Shown here: piece after piece, positions 10,220 to 22,848 of the stretch | Layout: each line of letters opens with the position of its first letter | How positions within the stretch are numbered: the first letter of the stretch is position 1 | Assembly (NCBI GenBank): GCA_964634885.1 | Contig: CAZWLN010000001.1 | Coordinates: 135,932 to 199,931 of the forward strand | DNA: 64,000 nt | Origin: an uncultured Hyphomicrobiales bacterium | Lineage (GTDB): Bacteria > Bacteroidota > Ignavibacteria > Kapaibacteriales > UBA2268 | Direction: 5' to 3' | Notes under the pieces: generated by a model | What the model was told of the DNA's origin: nothing | The model's input: the letters and a program-made list of their open reading frames with translations, nothing else | The model's database searches: none | Position numbers and translations under genes: made by a program

Positions 10220-10762
10220 ATGCTTGATTTTGACCTCTTTAACTATTACACTCAGGTAAAGGATCACAACATTCTAATCTCCTTCAAAGGGGCGCTCTCC
10301 CAGGAAATACTTGTCGAAATGGGTGATTTCATCAAGAACAAAGTGTCTGTCGATAAAAAGATTAAAAAGATATTCACGGTTTTCGTCGAACTGGCACAAA
10401 ACATCATGCATTACTCCGCCGAAAGGGAAGAGATCGACGGCAAATCCTACGGCGTGGGCATCATTACTTTTACCGAAAGCAGCGATTTCTACCATATAAC
10501 TTCGGGTAACCTTACCGAAAAAGAACAGGCCTCTAAGTTTGCCGCCAGGTTACAGCGAATCAACAGCATGACCGAAGAAGAACTGAAAGAAAATTACAGC
10601 GAACAAATACGCAAGCCCTTAGACAGTTCCAACAAAGGAGCCGGCCTGGGATTGCTCGAAATCGCAAGAAAATCCAGTGGGAAAATAGATTACGAAATTG
10701 AAGACTACAACGAACAGCACTCGTTTCTTGTTCTGTCTGTGAATATTAAAAAGGGAGACTGA
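10220..10762 (+). CDS. Small GHKL-type Ser/Thr kinase, SiaB/RsbW-like (partner-switch kinase)
   Basis: 180 aa. N-box-like VELAQNIMHYS (E..N...H). G-box NKGAGLGLLEIARKS. No His-kinase H-box. Lies 2 nt upstream of a DUF1987 gene. Confidence 0.6.
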   Translation: MLDFDLFNYYTQVKDHNILISFKGALSQEILVEMGDFIKNKVSVDKKIKKIFTVFVELAQNIMHYSAEREEIDGKSYGVGIITFTESSDFYHITSGNLTEKEQASKFAARLQRINSMTEEELKENYSEQIRKPLDSSNKGAGLGLLEIARKSSGKIDYEIEDYNEQHSFLVLSVNIKKGD

Positions 10763-10764
10763 GG

Positions 10765-11142
10765 ATGGAAAACCTGATATTGCCCGGTACTAAAACAACA
10801 CCTTACGTTAACTTCAACAGTAAAAGCAATGTCCTTGAATTGTCCGGCGAATCCTACCCGGAAAACGCCATCGAATTTTACAAGCAGGTATTTGAATGGT
10901 TGAAACACTATTTCAAAGAAGAGCCTGCCCTGACGACATTCAACTTCAAACTTATGTATTTCAACACAAGTTCGTCAAAAGCAGTTCTTGACATTCTCGA
11001 TGTACTCGACGACCTGTACAACGAAGGCTCCAAAGTCATCGTCAACTGGTATTACCAGGTTGACGACGAGGATATGCTCGAAAGCGGGCAGGAATTTGCC
11101 GAAGGGCTGTCCCTGCCGTTTAACCTGATTTCCTATGAATAG
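10765..11142 (+). CDS. DUF1987 (SiaC-like) partner-switch protein
   Basis: 125 aa. Family pattern TPYVNF...LELSGESYPENA..FY..V..WL..Y...F.FKLMYFNTSSSKAV..ILD.L......VIVNWYY..DDEDMLESGQEF. Confidence 0.7.
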   Translation: MENLILPGTKTTPYVNFNSKSNVLELSGESYPENAIEFYKQVFEWLKHYFKEEPALTTFNFKLMYFNTSSSKAVLDILDVLDDLYNEGSKVIVNWYYQVDDEDMLESGQEFAEGLSLPFNLISYE

Positions 11143-12127
11143 CGGCGGCGGGACAATGTCAAAAGACCAGATAAAAAAGGCGGATTTCGACAACATTTTC
11201 TCGACGGAGCTCTATTTCCTGAACCATGCAGAGGAAATTGCCGACAAAGCCGACATTATCTCACGTGAAGAACTGCTCGAGGAATTCAACAAGCTGACAC
11301 AGAACTACGCCAATCTGCTGAAACAGACAAAGAAGCTCATCAAGATAGGCGATTCCACCCAGCGTAAGCTGCGCAACGCCCACGTCAAGCTCGAAGACCA
11401 GAACGCCATGATCAACGCCCAGTACCAGAAACTGAGGGAACTGAACGCTACCAAGGATAAGTTCTTTACGATCATCTCCCATGACATCCGCAATCCAATC
11501 ACTTCCATCCTGATGATGGCCGAGATACTGAAGTATTCCTCAGACCGGCTGTCAAAAGAGGAACTGGGCGACAAGATCGGCTCCATCATCGAAGCCATCA
11601 AACGCGTTTTCGCCCTCTTTGACAACCTGCTCCGCTGGTCGCGCTCACAGACAGGCAGCATCAGCTTCATCCCGGAAAACATTGTCCTTTCTACCTTGGT
11701 TGACAAAGTGAGTACCCTGCTGGACATGGAGCTTTCGAACAAGAGCATTCGCTTTTCTACTGCCATACCCGACGACCTGGTGGTTTTCGGCGACAGGAAC
11801 ATGCTGGAGACAGTGTTCCGTAACCTCATCTCAAACTCCATCAAATTCTCCCACATTAACGGCGAGATCAAAGTCCTTACCGAAGTACAGAACAAAGAAG
11901 CCGTGGTTACCATCAGGGACAACGGCGTAGGCATCAATAAAGACGACATTAAAAAACTGTTCAGAATAGATGAGAATTACAAGACAAAGGGAACGGCCAA
12001 TGAGATGGGGTCAGGCCTGGGACTGTTGCTCTGCAAGGAGTTCGTGGAAAAGCACGGCGGCCAGGTCTGGGTAGAAAGCGTGGAAGGTAAAGGGTCCGAT
12101 TTCAAGTTTACAGTGCCAATTGCCTGA
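11135..12127 (+). CDS. Soluble sensor histidine kinase (HisKA + HATPase_c, no TM segment, no receiver)
   Basis: H-box FFTIISHDIRNPITSI. N, G1 and G2 boxes (NLISNSIKFS, IRDNGVGI, GSGLGLLLCKEFVEKHGG). N-terminal coiled coil. Overlaps the DUF1987 gene by 8 nt (alternative start ATG at 11156). Confidence 0.8.
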   Translation: MNSGGGTMSKDQIKKADFDNIFSTELYFLNHAEEIADKADIISREELLEEFNKLTQNYANLLKQTKKLIKIGDSTQRKLRNAHVKLEDQNAMINAQYQKLRELNATKDKFFTIISHDIRNPITSILMMAEILKYSSDRLSKEELGDKIGSIIEAIKRVFALFDNLLRWSRSQTGSISFIPENIVLSTLVDKVSTLLDMELSNKSIRFSTAIPDDLVVFGDRNMLETVFRNLISNSIKFSHINGEIKVLTEVQNKEAVVTIRDNGVGINKDDIKKLFRIDENYKTKGTANEMGSGLGLLLCKEFVEKHGGQVWVESVEGKGSDFKFTVPIA

Positions 12128-12154: not shown

Positions 12155-13216
12155 ATGCACGAAGCTCTTTTATATCAAAAAGCCGGAGACGGTTCGGGAG
12201 CGGTAAACTGCCGCCTGTGTTCCCATTACTGCCATATTGAAGAAGGCAACACCGGCACTTGTAAACTGCGTGTCAACGAGGACGGGACACTGTTCACCAT
12301 GAGTTGGGGCAACGCAGACGGAGCCGCCATCGACCCCATAGAGAAAAAACCCTTCTTTCATTACAAACCGAACACAAGGGTATTATCCTTCGGCACTCCC
12401 GGCTGCAATTTCCGCTGTCTCAACTGCCAGAACAGCCACCTGTCGCAGGTTTACAGGAACTATCACCCTCACTCCGACATGGAGAAAACACTCACTCCGG
12501 AACAGATTGTCAATTACGCGGAAAAGTACAAGGTGGACGGCATTGCCTACACCTACTCCGAACCTACCATCTTCTTCGAATATGCCCGCGACACTGTGCT
12601 GGAATGCAGAAGGAGGGAGGCCCTCTGTTCCGTTTTCCATGTCTTAGTGTCGAACGGCTTCTTCAGTCCCGAAATGCTTGAACTGAGCCTGAAAGAAGAC
12701 TTGTTTTCAGCAGTGAATATAGACCTGAAATTCATGAGCGACGGAAAATACAGGGATATTTGCGGAGGCAGGCTGCAGCCTGTGCTGGACAACATCCGTC
12801 GAGTGTATGATGCGCGCGAAAAGATGCACATGGAGATCATCAACCTGGTCATCCCCGGCGAGAACGACAGCGACGACGACTTCGTCAGGCTCTGCGAGTT
12901 CATGGCGTCGGTGTCGCCTGAGATTCCCCTTCATTTCAACAGGTTCTACCCGAAGTACAAAATGGCAAACAAGGACCTTACTGAACTGTCAACGTTGACG
13001 AGAGCAAAGGAGACAGCCATAAAGCACGGCCTGAAGTATGTTTACATAGGCAACGCCTCCCTCAGGGACTCGGAGAACACCTACTGTCCCGAATGTGGGG
13101 CCCTGCTCGTCGAACGCCATTATTATGAGATCGGCAGCAACTGCTTCGAAGCCCTGGAGCCTGGAGAGGAGCCACGCTGCCCCAAGTGCGGCGCCTTAGT
13201 AAATTTTGTGGTGTGA
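12155..13216 (+). CDS. amrS: AmmeMemoRadiSam-system radical SAM enzyme (AmrS-like) with C-terminal Zn-ribbon extension
   Basis: N-terminal CRLCSHYC...GTC Cys cluster. DPIEKKPFFHY. Radical SAM GCNFRCLNCQN CX3CX2C motif. C-terminal CPECG...CPKCG. Confidence 0.7.
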   Translation: MHEALLYQKAGDGSGAVNCRLCSHYCHIEEGNTGTCKLRVNEDGTLFTMSWGNADGAAIDPIEKKPFFHYKPNTRVLSFGTPGCNFRCLNCQNSHLSQVYRNYHPHSDMEKTLTPEQIVNYAEKYKVDGIAYTYSEPTIFFEYARDTVLECRRREALCSVFHVLVSNGFFSPEMLELSLKEDLFSAVNIDLKFMSDGKYRDICGGRLQPVLDNIRRVYDAREKMHMEIINLVIPGENDSDDDFVRLCEFMASVSPEIPLHFNRFYPKYKMANKDLTELSTLTRAKETAIKHGLKYVYIGNASLRDSENTYCPECGALLVERHYYEIGSNCFEALEPGEEPRCPKCGALVNFVV

Positions 13217-13440
13217 AGGTAAATTATAGTATTAATTAATCATGATATATTATTGTTAAGGAAAAGAAAATATTCGTACATTTGTATACAATAGTGTACA
13301 TTCACAATTTATTTGCATTAGGAAATAGAGGATGAAAGCATTTCATAGTAAAAAGGCTAAAGTATTTGAAAAATTTACATAGTTAGAACCTTCTTACACT
13401 CTTTAAATTAATTATTAAAATTACTTAATTTTAAAAATCT

Positions 13441-14637
13441 ATGGAAAAGACACAGAATTACATCATTTTACAAAATGGTTATACTCTATCCTACGATGAA
13501 ACTCAATGTTATGAGAATGATAAAGAGTATCAAAGTAATGATAGTGATAAAAGAGAACCCAATGAGATAATTAAAGAATTAAAGCATAAATTCTATAATG
13601 CTTTTTTTAAGAAACATTTTAGAAATCTTATTTTCCTTACTGCAGCTGGAACATCTCTAAATAATGGAGAAAACAGTGGTAAAACAAGAGAAGACCTTTG
13701 GAATGAATGCAAAGATGAAATTTCTTCATTAGAAAAAAAGGATAAGAATGTATCATCAAAACCTTTTTTTATAGAGAAAGATATTGAGGGGTTATTATCA
13801 TATATCATTCTCTATGAAAAAATTCATGGAGATTTGATAATTAATAAAAATGAATTATTAAAAGCAAAAATAGAAAAAAAAATATCTGAAACATGTAAAT
13901 TGGTACTTTCTGAAACTGCACCTCATAAAGAATTTCTTAATAAAATTACAGCAAGGAAGCCAAGTGAGCCAAGGATAAAACTATTTACAACAAATTACGA
14001 TACATTATTTGAACAGGCTGCCAATGAAGCAGGTTTTATTATTATTGATGGTTTTTCTTATACACAGCCTAGAAGGTTTTCTGGAAGGTATTTTGATATT
14101 GATATTGTAAACCGAGAAAAAACAAGAATCAAACAGGAAGAAAGTTTTCTTTCTAAAGTATTCCATTTGTATAAATTACATGGTTCTGTAAATTGGACAA
14201 AAGAAAATAACACAATATTGTTAAAAGAAAACCCAACAAATCCACTAATCATCTATCCGGCATCTGAAAAATATGAAAGTTCATATGAACAACCCTACTT
14301 CGAGATGATGTCGAGATTTCAATCATCCCTCAGACAAGAAAATACATTATTAATAGTTATTGGTTTTGGTTTTAAAGACAAACATATTCAAAATGTAATT
14401 ATAGAAGCTGTGGAACAAAATCCAAGTTTTCAACTTGTGATAATAAATTATAGTAATAGTAATAGTATTCAGACAACCAATTTAGAATCATTTTTTCTTA
14501 ATGTAGATGCAATGAAAGTCAAAAGAAATGTGACCATAATATTTGATAACTTTAGTGGATTTGTCGATAATTATCCATCAAATCTAACATATATTGAACA
14601 ACAAAAGGATAACAATAATGAATCCATTCAGCCATAA
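13441..14637 (+). CDS. SIR2-like (SIR2_2 family) protein, probable NADase effector of a SIR2-HerA defence pair
   Basis: Motifs IFLTAAGTS, KLFTTNYDTLFEQA and LYKLHGSVNW are characteristic of defence-associated SIR2 domains. The gene is very AT-rich. Confidence 0.7.
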   Translation: MEKTQNYIILQNGYTLSYDETQCYENDKEYQSNDSDKREPNEIIKELKHKFYNAFFKKHFRNLIFLTAAGTSLNNGENSGKTREDLWNECKDEISSLEKKDKNVSSKPFFIEKDIEGLLSYIILYEKIHGDLIINKNELLKAKIEKKISETCKLVLSETAPHKEFLNKITARKPSEPRIKLFTTNYDTLFEQAANEAGFIIIDGFSYTQPRRFSGRYFDIDIVNREKTRIKQEESFLSKVFHLYKLHGSVNWTKENNTILLKENPTNPLIIYPASEKYESSYEQPYFEMMSRFQSSLRQENTLLIVIGFGFKDKHIQNVIIEAVEQNPSFQLVIINYSNSNSIQTTNLESFFLNVDAMKVKRNVTIIFDNFSGFVDNYPSNLTYIEQQKDNNNESIQP

Positions 14638-16375
14638 TTACTTTTTAGGATATATCAATGAAGTCACTCCACAGTATGTAAAAATACACTTCCCATCTTC
14701 AGGTTTATTAGACAAATTTTGTCATGAAGGTAATGATTACTCAGGTGGAAAAGTTGGAAATTTTGTAGTAATCGAAGGAGAAGAATATGGTTTTTTGGCT
14801 AGAATCTTAGAAATCAACCTTCCTGACAGTGAGAAAAAAGAAATAAATGAAAAAGCAATTCAACATGATGAAACAACATTTCACCCTTCTGGTAAAGCTG
14901 AACTTTTATTATGCTTCAGCGTATATGACCCCCAAAAAGCTATGAAAACAGTATCAAAGTATCCTACAATAGGCGCAAAAGTATATTCTTGTTCTGATGA
15001 ACAAATTGCTGAATATGTAAAACAATTTGGAAAAAATGAAAAAGAAATTGATAATATATACGGTGAGTTAGGAAAACTGACTTCTAACAATGCTATTTGT
15101 AGAATTTCATTAAATTCTCTATTCGGAAGACATTGTGCCGTTGTTGGAACAACTGGAGGAGGTAAAAGTTGGACAATCGCAAAATTAATTGAAGAGATTA
15201 CAAAAGTAACTGATAATAAAGTTATACTAATTGATGCAACAGGTGAGTATAGCAAATTAGAGACTAAGTCCTTAACTTTAGGTAAGGATACGTTTTTCCC
15301 ATATCAAAAATTAACCATACCAGACCTATTTTTTCTGTTACGTCCTACGGGTCAATCTCAGAGGCCAATATTATTAGAAGCTATAAGATCATTAAAAATG
15401 AGAAGGCTTTTAAATATTAATTTACAAGATGATGAATCAATACTAAAAAAAGCTAAACAACAAAAACAACGTATATTAAAATTTTATCAAGATAAAATAA
15501 AAGAAATTGAGGATAATTCTTGTAATTTTGACATTAACTTTCTTATTTCTCAAATTTTTGAGGAATGTGTCTATCAAAATGGTTTTAATGATACAAACTC
15601 TTGGGGTGATTATGATAGGAAAACATATGACTACCAGACAACACTTATAAATAGAATTACTGATCTTATTAATAATAAGATATTTAATAGTCTTTTAGGC
15701 TTTACTGAAATTCCTTGCAATAATACATCTATTATTGAACAGATAGAAGAATTTGTTTCAAATAAAAAAGGAAATGTAAAAGTATTGAGACTGAATTTTG
15801 AGAATATCCCCTCTTTATATTCAGTTAAAGAAATAATCTCAAATGCTATTGCATCGTTCCTTTTAAATGAAGCCAGGCAAACAAGATTTAAAGAGTCACC
15901 TATAATTTTAATATTAGATGAAGCTCATCAGTTTTTAAATAAAAGTGTGAAAGATGAGTTTTTTGATAGTAACACATTGGATTCTTTTGATTTAATAGCG
16001 AAAGAATGCCGCAAATATGGGCTTTTTTTATGTCTAGCTACTCAGATGCCCCGTGATATACCTATTGGGACTTTAAGCCAGATGGGTACATTTATTGTTC
16101 ACAGACTAATCAACGAACAAGATAAGAAGGCAATAGAAAATGCTGCTTCATCTGCTAATAGAAGTGCTTTGTCATTTTTACCAATTTTAGGAGAGGGTGA
16201 AGCATTACTTATTGGTGTTGATCTCCCAATGCCTTTACTAATAAAGATACATGAACCAACGATAAAACCAGAGTCCAATACACCGAGGTTAAAAAAAAGG
16301 GCTGATCAGGAAATGAATAACAATGTGGATCAAAAAATAAAAGAACTATTCGGGGCAGTACCTTTAAACATGTAA
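14594..16375 (+). CDS. herA: HerA-like FtsK/HerA-superfamily ATPase (SIR2-HerA partner)
   Basis: Walker A VVGTTGGGKSWT. Walker B ILILDEAHQF. About 590 aa. Overlaps the SIR2 gene (an alternative ATG at 14618 gives a 20-nt overlap). Confidence 0.75.
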   Translation: MNNKRITIMNPFSHNYFLGYINEVTPQYVKIHFPSSGLLDKFCHEGNDYSGGKVGNFVVIEGEEYGFLARILEINLPDSEKKEINEKAIQHDETTFHPSGKAELLLCFSVYDPQKAMKTVSKYPTIGAKVYSCSDEQIAEYVKQFGKNEKEIDNIYGELGKLTSNNAICRISLNSLFGRHCAVVGTTGGGKSWTIAKLIEEITKVTDNKVILIDATGEYSKLETKSLTLGKDTFFPYQKLTIPDLFFLLRPTGQSQRPILLEAIRSLKMRRLLNINLQDDESILKKAKQQKQRILKFYQDKIKEIEDNSCNFDINFLISQIFEECVYQNGFNDTNSWGDYDRKTYDYQTTLINRITDLINNKIFNSLLGFTEIPCNNTSIIEQIEEFVSNKKGNVKVLRLNFENIPSLYSVKEIISNAIASFLLNEARQTRFKESPIILILDEAHQFLNKSVKDEFFDSNTLDSFDLIAKECRKYGLFLCLATQMPRDIPIGTLSQMGTFIVHRLINEQDKKAIENAASSANRSALSFLPILGEGEALLIGVDLPMPLLIKIHEPTIKPESNTPRLKKRADQEMNNNVDQKIKELFGAVPLNM

Positions 16376-16672
16376 AAATCAATGAAAGATATTAAACAAA
16401 CATAATTAAATTGAATGTACAAGTATAGATATTGAAATCATATACTACTAAAGATATTCAATTCATTATATTATATATACAATTATTCTAATTGTTTGAA
16501 TTATTTATGTTTATTTCACGAAGTGGAATTTTCACTGTATATATTAATCAAATTTAATTCATATATAGTAGCGGTAGATTAAGGATAATTTCTTAATTTT
16601 AAGTTTTTGTTTTGATATTTTCCGGAAAATGTTTGCCGGAGTGATAAAGATTGTTGAATTGATGGGGTGATT

Positions 16673-18595
16673 ATGTCGGAATTCTTGTTTAAACCATTTG
16701 AAGAAATGACTGAGAAGGATTATGCCGAAGTGGGATTTATGTCGGGCCTGGAAATACACCAGCAGTTGTTTACGGACAGGAAATTGTTCTGCCGCTGCCC
16801 TGCCGGCCACTACAGCGACGAATACCATGCGGAAATCCTTCGCCACATGAGGCCTACGCTCTCCGAACTGGGTGAATATGACGGTACGGCCTTGATGGAA
16901 TTTAAAACCAAAAAAGATATTATTTACAGAATAAACAGGAATACTGTTTGCACTTACGAGATGGACGACACACCGCCTTTCGAGATGAACGAAGACGCTC
17001 TGGACATAGGCATAGAAGTGGGTATGCTCCTCAACGCCAAAATCGTCGATGAGATACACATCGCCCGTAAGCAATACCTCGACGGCAGCATCCCGACAGG
17101 CTTCCAGAGAACCGCCATCATCAGTGTCGGCGGCTGGATACCGTTCAAAGACAGGAAGATCAACATCATACAGATGTCCATCGAAGAAGACTCCTGCCGC
17201 GAATACAGCGACAAAGGGCACACAAGGATTTACCTGACAGACAGGCTCGGAATGCCGCTTATCGAAACGGTTACCCATCCTGACATGAAAACTCCCCAGG
17301 AAGTTGCAGAAGTCAACGACATACTACGCAGGCTGTCACGCAGCACAGGCAAAGTAAGAACCGGCGTGGGCGCCACCCGCCAGGACGTTAACGTAAGCGT
17401 CAGGGGAGGCACCAGGATTGAGATCAAAGGCGTGCCAAGCATAAAGAGAATACCTTTACTTACATACAACGAAGCAATGAGGCAGTGGAACCTCCTAAGG
17501 CTCAGAACCGAAATGCACAACAGGGGCATCACCGAAACCACCTTCGAACACAAAGTGGACGAAGTGACAAACCTCCTGAAGAAAACCCACTACCAGCCCA
17601 TCGCCGACGCCATAGGCCAGGGTAAGAGAGTACTTGCCGTAACACTGCGCAAATGCAAAGGCCTCCTGAGATGGCAAACACAGACAGACACTACCTTCGC
17701 TAAAGAGATATCCGACAGGGTACGCGTCATTGCCTGCCTCACCGACCTGCCAAACATTACCCACTCCGACTATCCCGGCGAAACAATTTCCTCGGCAGAC
17801 GGCAGCAGGATCAGGCAGAAAGTCGGAGCCGGCAAAGACGACGCTTTGGTACTCGTATGGGGCAGCGAACAGGATACGGAATGTGCAGCCCGCGAGATCG
17901 CCATCCGCGTAAAAGAAGCCACAATCGGCGTTCCTTCGGAAACACGCCAGGCTCTCTCAGACGGAACCAACGGATTCGAGAGGATTCTCCCAGGTCCCGA
18001 GAGGATGTATCCCGACACTGACCTTCCTCCGAAGAAGCTCTCAGACGAGCGTAAGGAAGCCATCAGGAAAGGCCTGCCCGAACAAATATGGAGAAGAGAA
18101 GGCTGGTACCGCGAGATCGGCGTACATGAGGATTTCATCAAAGAACTGGCAAAATCTAAGTTCGCCCCTACTTTCGAAAAATTGGTCAAGGACTGGGACA
18201 TCGACCCCAAACTGCTGTCCTTCGTCCTGATACCTTACATGAAACGACTTAAGAAAAAGAAGATTGATATTAATTTGTTGAGCGATGAGATCATACTTAA
18301 GATCTTCGACGCCTATCGCACCAAAAAAATCATCAGGGAAGGCATCTTCGTTGCAGTGGAGAAATCGCTGAACCAAGGCAAATTTACTAAGGAAGTTCTT
18401 CCTAAGCCCGTCAACCTCGACGATATTAAAGACTTCGCAAAGAAAAGCCTTACAGAAGTAAAGAAGATGACTCTTTACTATCCTGACAACCTTCAGAAGA
18501 TACTTATGGGTGTGGTAATGAACAAATACCGCGGGAAGATCAGCGGCGCAGAAACAATAAAATATGTCGAAGAATTAGCTCAACAGGAGGGATAA
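16673..18595 (+). CDS. gatE: Glutamyl-tRNA(Gln) amidotransferase subunit E (archaeal-type GatE)
   Basis: GLEIHQQL...KLFCRCP N-terminal GatB/E signature. About 640 aa, the length of GatE with its insertion domain rather than the ~480 aa of GatB. ATG at 16673 is preceded by a GGGGTG RBS (the track start at 16667 is GTG). Confidence 0.75.
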   Translation: MSEFLFKPFEEMTEKDYAEVGFMSGLEIHQQLFTDRKLFCRCPAGHYSDEYHAEILRHMRPTLSELGEYDGTALMEFKTKKDIIYRINRNTVCTYEMDDTPPFEMNEDALDIGIEVGMLLNAKIVDEIHIARKQYLDGSIPTGFQRTAIISVGGWIPFKDRKINIIQMSIEEDSCREYSDKGHTRIYLTDRLGMPLIETVTHPDMKTPQEVAEVNDILRRLSRSTGKVRTGVGATRQDVNVSVRGGTRIEIKGVPSIKRIPLLTYNEAMRQWNLLRLRTEMHNRGITETTFEHKVDEVTNLLKKTHYQPIADAIGQGKRVLAVTLRKCKGLLRWQTQTDTTFAKEISDRVRVIACLTDLPNITHSDYPGETISSADGSRIRQKVGAGKDDALVLVWGSEQDTECAAREIAIRVKEATIGVPSETRQALSDGTNGFERILPGPERMYPDTDLPPKKLSDERKEAIRKGLPEQIWRREGWYREIGVHEDFIKELAKSKFAPTFEKLVKDWDIDPKLLSFVLIPYMKRLKKKKIDINLLSDEIILKIFDAYRTKKIIREGIFVAVEKSLNQGKFTKEVLPKPVNLDDIKDFAKKSLTEVKKMTLYYPDNLQKILMGVVMNKYRGKISGAETIKYVEELAQQEG

Positions 18596-19983
18596 TGGCA
18601 CAGAACGAAGACTATAAAGGCTACCGCGGCCAAACGCTCGAGGTACTGCAAAAATACGAAGCAATGATCTGGAGCGATGTTGAAATTGAAACCACAGACG
18701 GCGACTTCATCGGGAAAATACTGCCCAGGTCTGAAAACGCCGACGATAAACATATTGTACTTAAGCTCATCACCGGTTACAACATCGGCATTGCCTCTGC
18801 CAAAGTACAAAACATGAAGATTCTTGGCCGCAAGATCATCAACTATAAAATTCCTGAAAAGGCTTTCCCGTACGATCCGAAGAAACCGAGAGTCAAGCTC
18901 TTCGGTACCGGCGGCACCATCGCCAGCCGTCTCGATTACCGTACCGGCGCAGTCATTCCGGCCTTCTCGCCAGGCGAACTGTACGGTTCGGTTCCTGAAC
19001 TGGCAGACGTCTGCAACTTGGAAACAGATAAGCTTTTCGGTGTTTTCAGCGAGAACATGGGCCCCGAGCAGTACAAGATCTGCGCTGAGAGAATCGGCGA
19101 AGAGATTGAAAAGGGTGTAAAAGGCATAGTCATCGGGCACGGTACCGACACAATGCACCACACTTCGGCCATCCTGTCGTTCATGGTACAGAATTCACCT
19201 GTACCGATTGTAATGGTAGGTTCACAGCGTTCCAGCGACAGGCCTTCGTCAGACGCAGCGCTTAACCTGATCCACAGCGTTAAGACAGCCGCCGAGAGCG
19301 ACATCGCCGAGGTAATGGTCTGTATGTTCGGCCCCACATCCGACACTTACGGCCTGCTTCACAGAGGCACACGCGTACGTAAGATGCACTCCAGTTACAG
19401 GTCAACCTTCAGGACCATCGGCGACATTCCCCTTGCCATGGTCAACAGGGACAAGATTACTCCGCTGCGCAGCGACTACAAAAAGAGAAGGAACGACAAG
19501 AACGTTACAATCAACACCGCCTTCGAAGAGATGGTAACAATACTCTATTACTATCCCAACATGAGGCCGGACCTGATCTACTCGCTCATCGACAACGGCT
19601 ACAAAGGCATAGTAATTGCCGGCACAGGCCTGGGCCATGTCAACAAACCGCTCTACCCGGCGCTGAAACGCTGCCAGGAAGCCGGCGTTGCCGTTTACAT
19701 GACCGTACAGACCCTCTGGGGCTATGTACAGATGTACGTTTACGAGACAGGCAGGGAGATGATGGACCTTGGAGTCATTCCTCTCGCCAACGTCCTTCCC
19801 GAAGTAGCTTATGTTAAACTCGGCTGGGCTATGGGACAAACCAACGACCTCGACGAAGTAAAGAAGATTATGCTCACTCCCGTTAACGGCGAGCTTACCG
19901 ACAGGGAACCCAGCAACGGCTACCTGATCTACCAGGGCGGCATTCCCGAGGTAGAAGAGTTCATCTCGCAGTACAGGAAGTAA
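18595..19983 (+). CDS. gatD: Glutamyl-tRNA(Gln) amidotransferase subunit D (archaeal-type GatD, asparaginase-like)
   Basis: N-terminal GatD-specific domain followed by an asparaginase fold. LFGTGGTIAS and GIVIGHGTDTM motifs. Start overlaps the gatE stop (TAATG). Confidence 0.75.
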   Translation: MAQNEDYKGYRGQTLEVLQKYEAMIWSDVEIETTDGDFIGKILPRSENADDKHIVLKLITGYNIGIASAKVQNMKILGRKIINYKIPEKAFPYDPKKPRVKLFGTGGTIASRLDYRTGAVIPAFSPGELYGSVPELADVCNLETDKLFGVFSENMGPEQYKICAERIGEEIEKGVKGIVIGHGTDTMHHTSAILSFMVQNSPVPIVMVGSQRSSDRPSSDAALNLIHSVKTAAESDIAEVMVCMFGPTSDTYGLLHRGTRVRKMHSSYRSTFRTIGDIPLAMVNRDKITPLRSDYKKRRNDKNVTINTAFEEMVTILYYYPNMRPDLIYSLIDNGYKGIVIAGTGLGHVNKPLYPALKRCQEAGVAVYMTVQTLWGYVQMYVYETGREMMDLGVIPLANVLPEVAYVKLGWAMGQTNDLDEVKKIMLTPVNGELTDREPSNGYLIYQGGIPEVEEFISQYRK

Positions 19984-20016
19984 TTTCCGGTCAATAATAC
20001 CTATGCAAATAAATAG

Positions 20017-20047
20017 AAGCCCGATTCACAGCGAGTCGGGCTTTTAC
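20017..20047 (+). terminator. Rho-independent terminator after gatD: AAGCCCGA-(11 nt loop)-TCGGGCTT followed by TTTAC; possibly bidirectional for the convergent minus-strand gene
   Basis: Perfect 8-bp stem read directly from the sequence. Short T tract. Confidence 0.6.
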
Positions 20048-20066
20048 GTAATAACCACATTATTTA

Positions 20067-21320
20067 CTATAATTTGAAGAATCCTTTTGTTGTTATTCCG
20101 TTTACGGTTTCCATAGATAAATAGAAACAACCGCTGTTAATGTTTTTTAATTGTATTGATACTCTATTGTAACCTGATGAAAAGTATTGCATAGGAGTTG
20201 AGAAGATTTCATTGCCAATTATATCATAGATATGGAACCTGGCATGGCTTTGCTCTGAAAGCTTGAGAGTAACTGTCAGTTCTTCATAGGCAGGATTGGG
20301 AGTTATCAATAGAAACGCATTGGACGCATAGTAGTCAAAGACCTCAGTAACACCGCTGTAATTGTAAATGCTGTTCAAATCGGATTTCAAATTTTGTTTA
20401 AAGTCATCGACGTCCACAACAGTCCCGTATCCCATGACATTATCAGGGTCAAAGACTTTACCGTCGATTACCGGGTACATATTGAGGTATCGGTTACCGT
20501 TTGAAAAAGGTGAAAACCAATAATAGTTAGTACTGTCGTCGCTGCAAATACCTGCATAACCTGTTAACATGATATATTCACGATTGCTAACTATCCATGG
20601 ATTGCCCGAAGAATCGACAGGAGGGCCCTTATCTTTTGTATAAACACAGGAAAACTGAAAACACGAACCGGGCAGAGCTTTTTGAGTCCTCGGATATGGG
20701 TCATATACATCATAGCTGCTGTCAATAAGATTGGGATCCTTGCATATCGGAATTACTTTCCCGGAAATTGTATCGATGATTGTACCGGTAATAATTAAAT
20801 AGGAAAAAACGGTTGTAGGGCTTGGAATTGTTTTAACTTCATTAACTTTTATATGGCTGATATTAATTGAATTAGCAAGGTTTATTAATTTGTACGGAGA
20901 GTCTAACAATTCGCGCATTTTCGTTGATGTGTAACCATATATATAGATTGGTGCAAGTTGATAGTTTGAATCCCGATATATCCAGTACAAACTTGAAGTA
21001 AGGCCATCATAATTATTTTGAATGGCTATATACTTCAGGTAGTATCTTAATGTGTCGTTGAGGTAGGTTTGTCTTGCAAGGAAATCATTCCATTCCTTTA
21101 AATTTTTTACGTTGCGGGACAGGCTGTCGAAATACATATATGATTCGATTACATTCTCAGGCATGTCCTTATTTACCGGAAAAGCGTCGAGAAGATTAAT
21201 TCTGTATGTTAACCCGTAATAGCTTTCCCAATTATCCGGCCAACAGGGAGGCTGCTGAGATTCAGCGCAGTAGATAGAAAAAAGGAATAATAATGTAAAT
21301 AAAAACGATTGCCTTTTCAT
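20067..21320 (-). CDS. Secreted hypothetical protein with T9SS C-terminal sorting domain
   Basis: Signal peptide MKRQSFLFTLLFLFSIYCAES. C-terminal LLITPNPAYEELTVTLKL...GCFYLSMETVNGITTKGFFKL sorting-domain pattern. Confidence 0.6.
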   Translation of the reverse strand: MKRQSFLFTLLFLFSIYCAESQQPPCWPDNWESYYGLTYRINLLDAFPVNKDMPENVIESYMYFDSLSRNVKNLKEWNDFLARQTYLNDTLRYYLKYIAIQNNYDGLTSSLYWIYRDSNYQLAPIYIYGYTSTKMRELLDSPYKLINLANSINISHIKVNEVKTIPSPTTVFSYLIITGTIIDTISGKVIPICKDPNLIDSSYDVYDPYPRTQKALPGSCFQFSCVYTKDKGPPVDSSGNPWIVSNREYIMLTGYAGICSDDSTNYYWFSPFSNGNRYLNMYPVIDGKVFDPDNVMGYGTVVDVDDFKQNLKSDLNSIYNYSGVTEVFDYYASNAFLLITPNPAYEELTVTLKLSEQSHARFHIYDIIGNEIFSTPMQYFSSGYNRVSIQLKNINSGCFYLSMETVNGITTKGFFKL

Positions 21321-21789
21321 TAGTATTACTCCTCAATATTATGAATGTATTTTAATAATAAATACAAATTTAATATAGAACAGACAATCGACATTTCCAA
21401 ATTAATTTATATTCATTTTATTTTTATATAATATTGCCATTATTTTATCATTTATTTGTTCGGAAACATTCAGCTATTTGCTTATATCTTATATACTTAT
21501 TGCAACTATCTAATGTATTAATATTAATTAATTTACATAATTTCACTTTAGCATTAACTAAGTTTTGGTATTGGAATAAATATTTCTTATTATGCATTAA
21601 TAGTAAATGCAATGTCCAAAAAGCTGAAAGAAATGATCTGCTATTGGCAGGTTTAAACTCATGCGCAACCCGGTTTACTCTCTTCGGCTTTTTGGACTCT
21701 TTTTTTTGCAAAATTCCTTTAAAATTCCCTTGAAATTTCATAGGTTTCTGTTTATATTATATCTGTACCTTTAACAAAACGGACAGAAT

Positions 21790-22848
21790 ATGAAATATTT
21801 GTTTTTTGACAAGGAAGAGCAGCCATACACCATCGAAAGTGAAGATGAGATGGTTTCTTTCATCGAAGACGGTTCGCTCAAAGGAAAAACTTTACTCTAC
21901 GACTTCGAAAAGGACAGACTGGACAAGGCTTCCCAGTACGGAGAATTCTCCCGGCTAAACAGCGCTGCCGCCAAAGGGCCGCGTGTCGTCGAAACATCCT
22001 CAGGCCAGACTACCCTGACCTATGATCGGACATTGACCGACAAAGAACAGTATATCATCCGTGGGAAAGACGTCCTGTCGAAGTCTGCCCCACAGAAAGT
22101 GAAATCGGCCGTCGGCTGTGTCTTTTCACTGATTATTATTTTCGTCGTAGGCATTCCGTGGATCCTGAGCATTGTCGATAGTAACGACGAGGAAGTAAGT
22201 AGTACCACGTCTTCTGGTCCAATTATTAATTATGACGATGAAACAACTGACAATAAATTCGTTGCTCTACTGAAGTCCTATGAAGAAGAATTCAACAGCG
22301 ATCAGACCAATCTCCAGGCTTCATACGATAATCAAAATACCGGTGTTTTCCTTTCTGATACGGTGCTGAGTTCAAAAGATTCCATAGATAAATACAACCA
22401 AAGAACAAATATGCTGATTGCATATATTCAGGGGCTGATTACAAAAGAAGAGGAGCGGTACAAGCTGTACAAAGACAGCTTCGACGAATTCTTTGCCTCA
22501 GACAGCAGCTATTCTGCCTCCAAAGAAATCATCTACAAGGAGATAAACAAAGGACATGAAAAGATTGCCGCATTCTACAATCTCGAACTCGATGCGATGA
22601 GCGATATACAAAAAATCTACAAATTACTCATGTCCATTCCCCAAAAATATCATTTCGAATCGGGACAGATAGTTTTTGACAAGACTGCCGACCTCAAGAA
22701 GTTTAATACGATGATATTCGATTTCAGGGAAAAAGCCGCAATGGAGAAAGAATGGATGAACAAAAAAGAACAGTCGGGACTATTTGATATTCAGTTAATT
22801 CGGGAGAAAATGCTTGCTGAAGAGCTATCCGTTAAGCCAAATGAATGA
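21790..22848 (+). CDS. Hypothetical single-pass membrane protein (possible N-terminal GYF-like/DUF4339-like module, C-terminal coiled coil)
   Basis: One hydrophobic helix VGCVFSLIIIFVVGIPWILSIV. Preceded by an AT-rich promoter region. Confidence 0.5.
   Translation: MKYLFFDKEEQPYTIESEDEMVSFIEDGSLKGKTLLYDFEKDRLDKASQYGEFSRLNSAAAKGPRVVETSSGQTTLTYDRTLTDKEQYIIRGKDVLSKSAPQKVKSAVGCVFSLIIIFVVGIPWILSIVDSNDEEVSSTTSSGPIINYDDETTDNKFVALLKSYEEEFNSDQTNLQASYDNQNTGVFLSDTVLSSKDSIDKYNQRTNMLIAYIQGLITKEEERYKLYKDSFDEFFASDSSYSASKEIIYKEINKGHEKIAAFYNLELDAMSDIQKIYKLLMSIPQKYHFESGQIVFDKTADLKKFNTMIFDFREKAAMEKEWMNKKEQSGLFDIQLIREKMLAEELSVKPNE

What the first reader, a model, noticed from the sequence alone, without database searches (positions are those of the whole stretch)
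13217..16666. AT-rich defence islet: SIR2-family NADase-like protein + HerA ATPase (SIR2-HerA anti-phage system) between amrS and gatE
The two overlapping genes have the hallmark motifs of defence SIR2 domains (TTNYD, KLHGS.W) and of HerA (Walker A and B), in the order and sizes known for SIR2-HerA systems. The whole ~3.4 kb segment, including both flanking intergenic regions, is visibly far more AT-rich than the neighbouring housekeeping genes. That is consistent with recent horizontal acquisition. No integrase, tRNA or direct repeats flank it.
Basis: partly seen in the sequence, partly recalled or inferred. Interest (0 to 1): 0.55.

Follow-up and report, generated by a model that had tools for sequence, protein, structure and literature searches.

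The report
SIR2–HerA phage-defence gene pair

Summary
Window 13441-14637 encodes a 398-aa SIR2_2 protein. Window 14618-16375 encodes a 585-aa HerA ATPase that overlaps it by 20 nt. Both match PADLOC SIR2-HerA models almost end to end (1e-79 and 4e-168). The SIR2 catalytic Asn185/Asp187/His247 align with the catalytic residues of solved SIR2-HerA systems, and the HerA Walker A and B motifs are intact. All of these residues are invariant in 25-27 homologues. The segment has 28% GC (GC3 0.19-0.20), against 45% (GC3 0.39-0.69) for every other gene in the window. It is the most AT-rich 3.45-kb stretch of the 64 kb. No tRNA, integrase, convincing flanking repeat or other defence gene lies nearby. 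The closest homologues (64%/76% identity, mostly Bacteroidota, also Listeria plasmids) keep the same overlapping gene pair. They sit in restriction-modification and defence islands. Three corrections apply. The host is a bacterium that carries archaeal-type GatDE. The foreign DNA probably ends near 16543, because 16544-16666 is the native gatE leader. The "empty site" synteny test could not be done, because no close relative has amrS beside gatE. The clade is only about 20% identical to any experimentally studied SIR2-HerA. Verdict: a new member of a known kind, of low to moderate interest.

The parts
13217..13440 (+). AT-rich (21% GC) spacer upstream of SIR2; presumed promoter region of the pair. 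It holds a Bacteroidota-type -7 box candidate, TACATTTG, at 13277-13284.
   Evidence: Sequence; GC. It holds no ORF of 20 aa or more on the + strand and no Rfam match. It shows no DNA similarity to the flanks of homologous pairs. Nine of the 14 intergenic TAnnTTTG matches in the window lie 27-157 nt upstream of a gene in the same orientation, and this is one of them. The promoter role is inferred, not shown.
13441..14637 (+). SIR2_2-family NADase-type effector, 398 aa. NAD-binding loop AAGTS at aa 68-72; catalytic N185, D187 and H247.
   Evidence: Pfam PF13289 4e-15. PADLOC SIR2 PDLC04075 1e-79, covering aa 36-381. PDB sequence hits 8yhx, 8w9l and 8j4u at about 1e-22. Catalytic residues aligned and invariant in 25 sequences. 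The top 36 Foldseek hits of the AF2 model (pLDDT 71) are all SIR2 chains of SIR2-HerA complexes.
14618..16375 (+). HerA-family (FtsK/HerA clade) ATPase, 585 aa. Walker A is G177-S184 and Walker B is D434/E435. It overlaps the SIR2 gene by 20 nt, with AGGA 10-13 nt upstream of the ATG. An alternative TTG start lies at 14594.
   Evidence: Pfam DUF87 3e-22 and HerA_C 1e-8. PADLOC HerA PDLC04103 3.8e-168, covering aa 7-572 of the 593-aa TTG-start ORF that was scanned. PDB hits 8xau (DUF4297-HerA), 8wiv (Paenibacillus SIR2-HerA), 8j4u and others. Motifs and invariant in 27 sequences. The gene caller on the Logan contig gives 585 aa. The AF2 model is poor (pLDDT 58), but its best fold matches are defence HerAs.
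16376..16543 (+). Extremely AT-rich (18.5% GC) 3' spacer after HerA. It is probably the distal end of the inserted DNA, and no function is assigned.
   Evidence: GC. No intrinsic terminator predicted, no Rfam hit, only tiny ORFs. No similarity to L001 or to the flanks of homologous pairs.
16544..16666 (+). Native gatE leader/promoter region. It is not part of the insert.
   Evidence: Conserved with the 133-nt intergenic region upstream of gatE in L001, the closest relative (gatE 80% identical). Conserved blocks are 16543-16558 and 16588-16616 (blastn), and similarity continues to the start codon in the local alignment. Local alignment score 45, reached by 0 of 500 shuffles.

Best explanation
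A two-gene SIR2-HerA abortive-infection anti-phage system was acquired horizontally as a bare cassette of about 3.3 kb. It now sits just upstream of the native gatE leader in a Kapabacteria/Ignavibacteria-like bacterium. What is shown here: both genes are intact, overlap by 20 nt (so they are likely co-transcribed and translationally coupled), retain all catalytic and nucleotide-binding residues, and belong to a large clade whose members sit in defence islands and on plasmids. What is inferred from published work on other SIR2-HerA systems (PMC11472057, PMC11514289, PMC13434337): HerA forms a hexameric ATPase that docks onto a ring of SIR2 subunits. The NADase is held inactive in the resting cell by autoinhibition and ATP. 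A phage cue, such as phage SSB-type proteins, DNA ends or ATP loss, releases it. SIR2 (N185/D187/H247) then hydrolyses NAD+. The infected cell stops growing and the phage cannot replicate.
For: The family assignment rests on four independent lines. (1) Profile matches over the full length of both proteins to PADLOC SIR2 (1e-79) and HerA (3.8e-168). (2) Sequence matches to solved SIR2-HerA complexes. (3) Fold matches ranked ahead of ThsA, SPARSA, DSR2 and sirtuin deacetylases, and for HerA ahead of archaeal repair HerA. (4) A conserved gene order with an overlap of 8-20 nt in homologues from five different contexts. The catalytic N/D/H residues are aligned to experimentally mutated residues and are invariant. 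Walker A and B are invariant. Guilt by association also applies: homologous pairs lie next to a type ISP restriction enzyme plus GAPS4 (L163), nested between hsdS and hsdR of type I RM operons (L166, L169), beside a DUF559 endonuclease and a patatin (L022), and on a mobilizable Listeria plasmid next to an invertase. Foreign origin is supported by GC of 28% against 45%, by GC3 of about 0.19-0.20 against 0.39-0.69, and by the pair's absence upstream of gatE in 80 related loci. DNA similarity to homologues is confined to the two coding regions. Both junctions are reproduced base for base in an independent Logan assembly.
Against: No functional data exist for this clade. It is only about 17-24% identical to any solved or tested SIR2-HerA. 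It scores far below the NCBIfam equivalog cut-offs (113.7 against 500 and 169.5 against 800). No paper in the searched library tests the Bacteroidota/Listeria clade. Expression in this host is unproven, since the promoter is inferred only. The AF2 models are mediocre: the SIR2 model is weak around H247 and the HerA model has pLDDT 58. No empty site was found, so acquisition and its recency rest on composition alone, and homologous pairs are generally AT-richer than their hosts.
Confidence: 0.85

Rival explanations
1. The pair is a silent or decaying passenger. It is a genuine SIR2-HerA cassette by descent, but it is not expressed or not functional in this host because its promoter and codon usage are foreign.
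For: Codon composition is extremely mismatched to the host (GC3 about 0.19-0.20 against about 0.55). No canonical promoter or terminator stands out above shuffles. The pair stands alone, without other defence genes.
Against: Both ORFs are full length, with no frameshift or stop codon. All residues that are invariant in the homologues are retained. The overlap and the internal AGGA are kept. A TAnnTTTG box of the type found upstream of other genes in the window is present.
Confidence: 0.07
2. The pair does something other than phage defence, for example HerA-driven DNA repair or translocation with a SIR2 regulator, or an addiction module that stabilises mobile DNA.
For: HerA also matches archaeal repair HerA and conjugation/FtsK-type ATPases at lower scores. 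The biological role of this particular clade is untested.
Against: No NurA, Mre11/Rad50 or conjugation genes lie nearby. Scores to the repair-HerA equivalogs are about a tenth of their cut-offs. The best matches are defence HerAs. The contexts of homologues are restriction-modification and defence islands. SIR2 lacks the Zn-ribbon cysteines of deacetylase sirtuins: it has three Cys and no CxxC (sequence), and it does not hit the classical sirtuin Pfam model.
Confidence: 0.05
3. The insert is an assembly chimera: AT-rich DNA from another organism was joined into this metagenomic contig.
For: The source is a metagenome-derived contig. Both junctions lie in low-complexity AT-rich DNA. The compositional jump is abrupt.
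Against: An independently produced Logan contig of SRR6476076 is identical over 14,782 nt spanning both junctions. The native gatE leader follows the insert in the expected register. A chimera would need two precise joins that leave both flanking genes intact. Note that both assemblies probably derive from the same reads.
Confidence: 0.03

Closest known systems
SIR2-HerA / Nezha anti-phage systems (E. coli 8j4u/8su9; Paenibacillus sp. 453MF 8w9l/8wld; S. aureus 8yhx)
   Same: A two-gene operon with SIR2 first and HerA second. SIR2_2 fold with catalytic Asn/(Asp)/His. HerA with Walker A and B. Similar protein sizes (about 400 and 570-600 aa). These are the best sequence and fold matches in the PDB.
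   Different: Only about 17-24% identity, with sequence E-values near 1e-22. The pair is far below the NCBIfam SIR2_antiphage and HerA_antiphage equivalog cut-offs. The oligomeric state (12-mer, 14-mer or dimer-based) and the trigger are unknown for this clade. The HerA C-terminal 25 residues are unique to the window protein (96% query coverage by homologues).
Bacteroidota-type SIR2-HerA clade (PADLOC models PDLC04075 + PDLC04103), e.g. pairs on L163, L166 and L169, and on Listeria plasmid CP030102
   Same: 64%/76% identity to the nearest members and 49% (HerA) to the Listeria plasmid copy. Same overlapping gene pair, same lengths and same invariant residues.
   Different: Those copies sit inside RM or defence islands or on a plasmid. 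The window copy stands alone between housekeeping genes of a different phylum-level lineage, and it shows a larger compositional contrast with its host.
DUF4297-HerA anti-phage system (8xau, 9c1m, 8ziq)
   Same: Its HerA is the top PDB match for the window HerA, both by sequence (2e-28) and by fold.
   Different: The partner effector is a DUF4297 nuclease, not SIR2. No DUF4297 gene is present here.
Other SIR2 defence effectors (Thoeris ThsA, DSR1/DSR2, SPARSA) and sirtuin deacetylases
   Same: They share the SIR2 Rossmann core and the catalytic Asn/His (ranks 37-50).
   Different: These are much weaker matches (E of 1e-4 or worse). No SLOG, TIR, Argonaute or large C-terminal sensor domain is present. 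No Zn-ribbon cysteines are present. The partner here is HerA.

Membership tests
SIR2-HerA anti-phage system (as defined by PADLOC / Gao 2020 / Garb 2022) | SIR2_2-family protein with an NAD-binding loop and catalytic Asn/(Asp)/His | tested here: met
   PF13289 4e-15. PDLC04075 1e-79. N185/D187/H247 align with PsSIR2 N163/D165/H212 and SaSir2 N226/H287 and are invariant in 25 homologues.
SIR2-HerA anti-phage system (as defined by PADLOC / Gao 2020 / Garb 2022) | HerA-clade ATPase (DUF87 + HerA_C) with intact Walker A and B | tested here: met
   PF01935 3e-22 and PF05872 1e-8. PDLC04103 3.8e-168 over aa 7-572. GTTGGGKS and ILILDE are present and invariant.
SIR2-HerA anti-phage system (as defined by PADLOC / Gao 2020 / Garb 2022) | The two genes are adjacent, co-oriented and operonic, with SIR2 upstream | tested here: met
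   20-nt overlap. The same order, with 8-20-nt overlaps, occurs in L163, L166, L169, L022 and the Listeria plasmid.
SIR2-HerA anti-phage system (as defined by PADLOC / Gao 2020 / Garb 2022) | Accessory gene found in defence-island or mobile contexts | tested here: met
   Homologues lie in RM/GAPS4 islands, inside type I RM operons and on a plasmid. The pair is absent upstream of gatE in 80 relatives. The window copy itself has no other defence neighbour.
SIR2-HerA anti-phage system (as defined by PADLOC / Gao 2020 / Garb 2022) | SIR2 oligomer and HerA hexamer assemble into a supramolecular complex that activates the NADase | not testable with these tools
   This needs co-purification or cryo-EM. 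The monomer AF2 models are only of moderate or poor confidence.
SIR2-HerA anti-phage system (as defined by PADLOC / Gao 2020 / Garb 2022) | Phage protection with infection-dependent NAD+ depletion | not testable with these tools
   This needs experiment. No paper in the library tests this clade.
NCBIfam equivalogs SIR2_antiphage (NF042942) and HerA_antiphage (NF042943/NF042944) | Whole-protein score above the curated cut-off | tested here: not met
   113.7 bits against 500, 169.5 against 800 and 114.9 against 850. The pair is therefore a related but distinct clade, not those equivalogs.
HerA-NurA DNA-end resection machinery | HerA equivalog score plus a neighbouring NurA nuclease (and Mre11/Rad50) | tested here: not met
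   NF040937 89.6 bits against 800 and NF040819 86.7 against 970. No NurA-like ORF is present; the neighbours are a radical-SAM enzyme and GatE.
DUF4297-HerA defence system | A DUF4297 nuclease encoded next to HerA | tested here: not met
   The only partner ORF is SIR2_2.
Sirtuin protein deacetylases (CobB/Sir2, PF02146) | PF02146 match and a Cys4 Zn-ribbon module | tested here: not met
   Only PF13289 is hit. The protein has three Cys (C23, C90, C152) and no CxxC pair (sequence). Classical sirtuins rank 42nd or lower in the fold search.

The most novel reading that the evidence does not exclude
The Bacteroidota-type clade to which this pair belongs (under 25% identical to every studied SIR2-HerA) could be a mechanistically distinct subtype, with a different SIR2:HerA stoichiometry, trigger or accessory nuclease/nickase activity. 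It may spread as a bare two-gene cassette without its own mobility genes, landing repeatedly in intergenic 'safe sites'. Examples are the hsdS-hsdR gap of type I RM operons and, twice independently, the flanks of gatDE in Ignavibacteriota-like genomes (the window and L022).
Probability: 0.15. Interest if true: 0.5.

Novelty: new member of a known kind. Interest (0 to 1): 0.25.

Why it matters
The finding adds a clean, minimal example of a SIR2-HerA cassette in a poorly studied lineage (Kapabacteria/Ignavibacteriota). It has one sharply defined boundary (the gatE side) and an unusually strong compositional contrast with its host. That makes it useful as a test case for how defence genes without mobility genes enter genomes. 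It also points to a large, experimentally untouched SIR2-HerA clade with thousands of homologues, mainly in Bacteroidota and also on Listeria plasmids. It does not change what is known about SIR2-HerA biology.

Tried and rejected
(1) Empty-site synteny through gatE. All 80 related loci keep gatE-gatD, but none has amrS upstream, and the flanks are not syntenic. The closest locus, L001, has an unrelated membrane protein upstream.
(2) Empty-site synteny through amrS in metagenomes. The best relative is only 46% identical, so there is no informative context.
(3) Exact-protein look-ups for strain variants. Only the same arrangement, from one sample, was found.
(4) Flanking direct or inverted repeats as insertion scars. 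The only candidate is an AT-only 16-mer (13419-13434 and 16587-16602, 15 of 16 identical). It is marginal in a fixed 16-mer test (6 of 200 shuffles) and not significant in a local alignment test (173 of 500). Its right copy lies inside the native gatE leader, which does not fit a simple target-site duplication. It was rejected as evidence.
(5) Non-coding RNA or small ORFs in the two spacers. There is no Rfam hit and there are no credible ORFs.
(6) Sigma-70 promoter and intrinsic terminator scan. It is not above shuffles. The whole-window count of TAnnTTTG is not enriched, although the intergenic copies are mostly oriented upstream of genes.
(7) AF2 model of HerA. At pLDDT 58, with the N-terminal 138 residues unmodelled, it was used only as weak support.
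(8) The idea that the gatDE flanks are a defence hotspot. PADLOC scans of the immediate neighbours in 76 upstream and 63 downstream positions gave only a handful of strong defence hits (Cas9, mad3, PDC-S07 and LeoA, one member each). That is not clearly above a genomic background, so no hotspot is claimed.
(9) Carriage by phages. Only 4 weak hits were found in 50,697 phage records.
Full report
1. WHAT IS THERE

The stretch 13217-16666 contains two co-oriented ORFs on the + strand.
- ORF 13441-14637 (398 aa) carries TTNYD at aa 183-187 and KLHGSVNW at aa 245-252.
- The second ORF ends at 16375 and can start at TTG 14594 or ATG 14618.
- I take the ATG, for three reasons. It is the start used by the gene caller on an independent contig (585 aa). 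It gives a 20-nt overlap like those of homologues (8-20 nt). It is preceded by AGGA.
- With ATG numbering, the Walker A motif GTTGGGKS is at 177-184 and the Walker B motif ILILDE at 430-435.

- an AmmeMemoRadiSam-type radical-SAM enzyme (12155-13216; TIGR04337, 298 bits against a cut-off of 220);
- GatE (16667-18595; NF003107, 6e-163);
- GatD (18595-19983).

2. IS THE COMPOSITION UNUSUAL?

Yes, and strongly.
- The segment has 28.3% GC against 44.8% for the rest of the window. It is the lowest of all 3450-bp windows (mean 43.8%, sd 3.7%).
- GC3 is 0.185 for SIR2 and 0.205 for HerA. All 42 other long ORFs of the window lie between 0.39 and 0.69, and the four immediate neighbours lie at 0.61-0.69.
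- The jump is abrupt at both ends.

3. WHAT THE PROTEINS ARE

SIR2:
- It hits Pfam SIR2_2 at 4e-15. It hits PADLOC SIR2 model PDLC04075 at 1e-79 over aa 36-381.
- By sequence, its only PDB relatives are the SIR2 subunits of the S. aureus, Paenibacillus and E. coli SIR2-HerA complexes, all near 1e-22.
- Paenibacillus N163/D165/H212 are described as the putative catalytic residues (PMC11472057). S. aureus N226/H287 are the proposed catalytic dyad, and mutating H287 abolishes NADase activity (PMC11514289). These residues align exactly with N185/D187/H247.
- Those three residues are invariant in an alignment of 25 homologues, as are the AAGTS loop (aa 68-72) and GFGF (aa 308-311).
- An AF2 model (pLDDT 71, weak at 202-249 and 269-284) finds SIR2 chains of SIR2-HerA complexes as its first 36 PDB matches. 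ThsA, SPARSA, DSR2 and sirtuin deacetylases rank behind them.
- The protein has only three cysteines and no CxxC pair, so it lacks the zinc module of deacetylase sirtuins.

HerA:
- It hits DUF87 and HerA_C. It hits PADLOC HerA model PDLC04103 at 3.8e-168 over practically its whole length.
- Its best PDB relatives are defence HerAs: the DUF4297-HerA system 8xau (identified), then Paenibacillus, S. aureus and E. coli SIR2-HerA. Sulfolobus repair HerA ranks behind them.
- Walker A and B are invariant in 27 homologues.
- The AF2 model is poor (pLDDT 58). Its fold matches, again defence HerAs first, therefore add little.

4. RELATIVES AND THEIR CONTEXTS

- More than 2,400 SIR2 and more than 3,000 HerA homologues were found. 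The nearest are 64% and 76% identical.
- Where a source names them, most are Bacteroidota (Bacteroidales, Prolixibacteraceae, Algoriphagus, Agriterribacter, Paludibacter), with a few from Proteobacteria.
- Partners from the same contig co-occur in both hit lists.

The contexts of the nearest pairs are these:
- L163: next to a type ISP restriction enzyme and GAPS4.
- L166 and L169: nested between hsdS and hsdR of two different type I RM operons.
- L022: flanked by a DUF559 endonuclease and a patatin.
- Listeria: a mobilizable plasmid carries a 49%-identical HerA with an adjacent SIR2, next to an invertase.
- Phage genomes essentially lack the pair.

DNA similarity between the window and these loci (about 69-71%) is confined to the two coding regions. 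The spacers are unrelated. What is shared is therefore the two-gene module.

5. HOST AND INSERTION SITE

- The 80 best gatE relatives (62-80% identity) are all bacterial MAGs labelled Kapaibacterium, Ignavibacteria, Melioribacter or Bacteroidota. The window also encodes a T9SS-sorted protein. The host is therefore an FCB-group bacterium that carries archaeal-type GatDE, not an archaeon.
- All relatives keep gatE-gatD, but their flanks differ. None has amrS or a SIR2-HerA pair upstream of gatE.
- In the closest locus, L001 (gatE 80%, gatD 91%), a membrane protein precedes gatE. Its 133-nt intergenic region is clearly homologous to window 16544-16666 (0 of 500 shuffles).
- The foreign DNA therefore ends between 16376 and about 16543, directly at the distal edge of the native gatE leader.
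- The left boundary cannot be set. amrS has no close relative in the metagenome scan (best 46%), and exact-protein look-ups return only the same arrangement.
- That Logan contig is identical to the window over 14.8 kb spanning both junctions. This argues against a chimera.
- No tRNA, integrase or other defence gene, Rfam family or convincing flanking repeat is present.

6. HOW IT MOST LIKELY WORKS

Shown here:
- an intact, overlapping SIR2-HerA operon with all catalytic residues;
- a foreign composition;
- defence-island contexts in relatives.

Inferred from studied SIR2-HerA systems (PMC11472057, PMC11514289, PMC13434337):
- a HerA hexamer binds a ring of SIR2 subunits;
- the NADase is autoinhibited and ATP-gated;
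- phage cues (SSB-type proteins, DNA ends, ATP loss) release it;
- NAD+ is hydrolysed and the infected cell arrests.

Transcription probably starts in the 224-nt upstream spacer. A TAnnTTTG box at 13277 resembles those upstream of other genes in the window, but this is not shown.

7. COMPARISON AND NOVELTY

- The pair meets every sequence-level criterion of a SIR2-HerA system. It does not meet the NCBIfam equivalog cut-offs.
- It is only about 17-24% identical to any solved system.
- No paper in the searched library tests this clade.
- E. coli alone has several SIR2-HerA types that are 13-22% identical to one another (PMC13434337). Such divergence is normal for the family.
- I classify it as a new member of a known kind.

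Caveat on 'recent acquisition': homologous pairs are also AT-richer than their hosts (0.31-0.34 against 0.37-0.43). Low GC is partly a property of this mobile gene pool. The contrast here is larger, however.

8. VERDICT

Interest is 0.25. This is a well-documented but ordinary defence islet. The most novel reading still open is a mechanistically distinct subtype that spreads as a bare cassette into recurrent intergenic sites. I give it about 15% probability.

Noticed in passing
window 16667-19983 (gatE, gatD); loci L001-L080: Archaeal-type GatDE (GatE NF003107 6e-163; GatD with GatD_N plus asparaginase domains) is encoded in a bacterial genome. The 80 best relatives (62-80% identity) are all Kapaibacterium, Ignavibacteria, Melioribacter or Bacteroidota MAGs with the gatE-gatD pair conserved. 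No paper in the searched library links GatDE to these taxa. GatDE is usually regarded as an archaeal signature (my own knowledge), so this may deserve its own look.
   Followed up: partly
L022 12006-14904 (- strand), JBFMBS010000006.1: A second, only 44-49% identical SIR2-HerA pair lies immediately downstream of gatD in another MAG. It is flanked by a DUF559 endonuclease and a patatin-like phospholipase, and it is also AT-richer than its flanks. It is an independent acquisition next to the same housekeeping operon. A scan of gatDE neighbours in 76 upstream and 63 downstream positions found only sporadic defence genes (Cas9, mad3, PDC-S07, LeoA), so a hotspot is not established.
   Followed up: partly
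L166 2930-13792 and L169 2128-13972: In two different genomes the SIR2-HerA pair sits inside a type I restriction-modification operon, between hsdS and hsdR. Other cargo travels with it: a DUF1016/YhcG gene upstream of hsdS plus a Fic-like gene after HerA in L166, and an SLFN/AlbA_2 ATPase gene upstream of hsdS plus RhuM after HerA in L169.
   Followed up: no
L017 9905-10899, L059 5465-6484, L036 9878-10393: About 0.5-1 kb of extra sequence separates gatE from gatD in three relatives. The two genes abut or nearly abut in most of the other loci. The content was not examined.
   Followed up: no
window 10220-12127: A DUF6272 protein, a SiaC-family regulatory phosphoprotein and a HisKA/HATPase kinase form a tight, overlapping three-gene operon just upstream of amrS. 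This suggests a partner-switch signalling module.
   Followed up: no
window 12155-13216 (amrS): The AmmeMemoRadiSam radical-SAM gene has host-like GC, but it has no relative above 46% full-length identity among 549 matches in the metagenome scan. No AMMECR1 or Memo partner hit was seen among its immediate neighbours.
   Followed up: partly
window 20000-22000: A second AT-rich patch (GC 0.26-0.37) lies downstream of gatD. It holds a T9SS-sorted protein on the minus strand (20067-21320, GC3 0.39) and a 470-nt intergenic region at about 26-31% GC. There are no PADLOC hits.
   Followed up: partly
window 16544-16616 and L001 1168-1229: The conserved gatE leader contains the blocks TAATCAAATTTAAT and ATTT(C/G)TTAATTTTAAGTTTTT, shared at 86-94% identity between genomes whose gatE proteins are only 80% identical. 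These are probably promoter or regulatory elements of gatDE.
   Followed up: no
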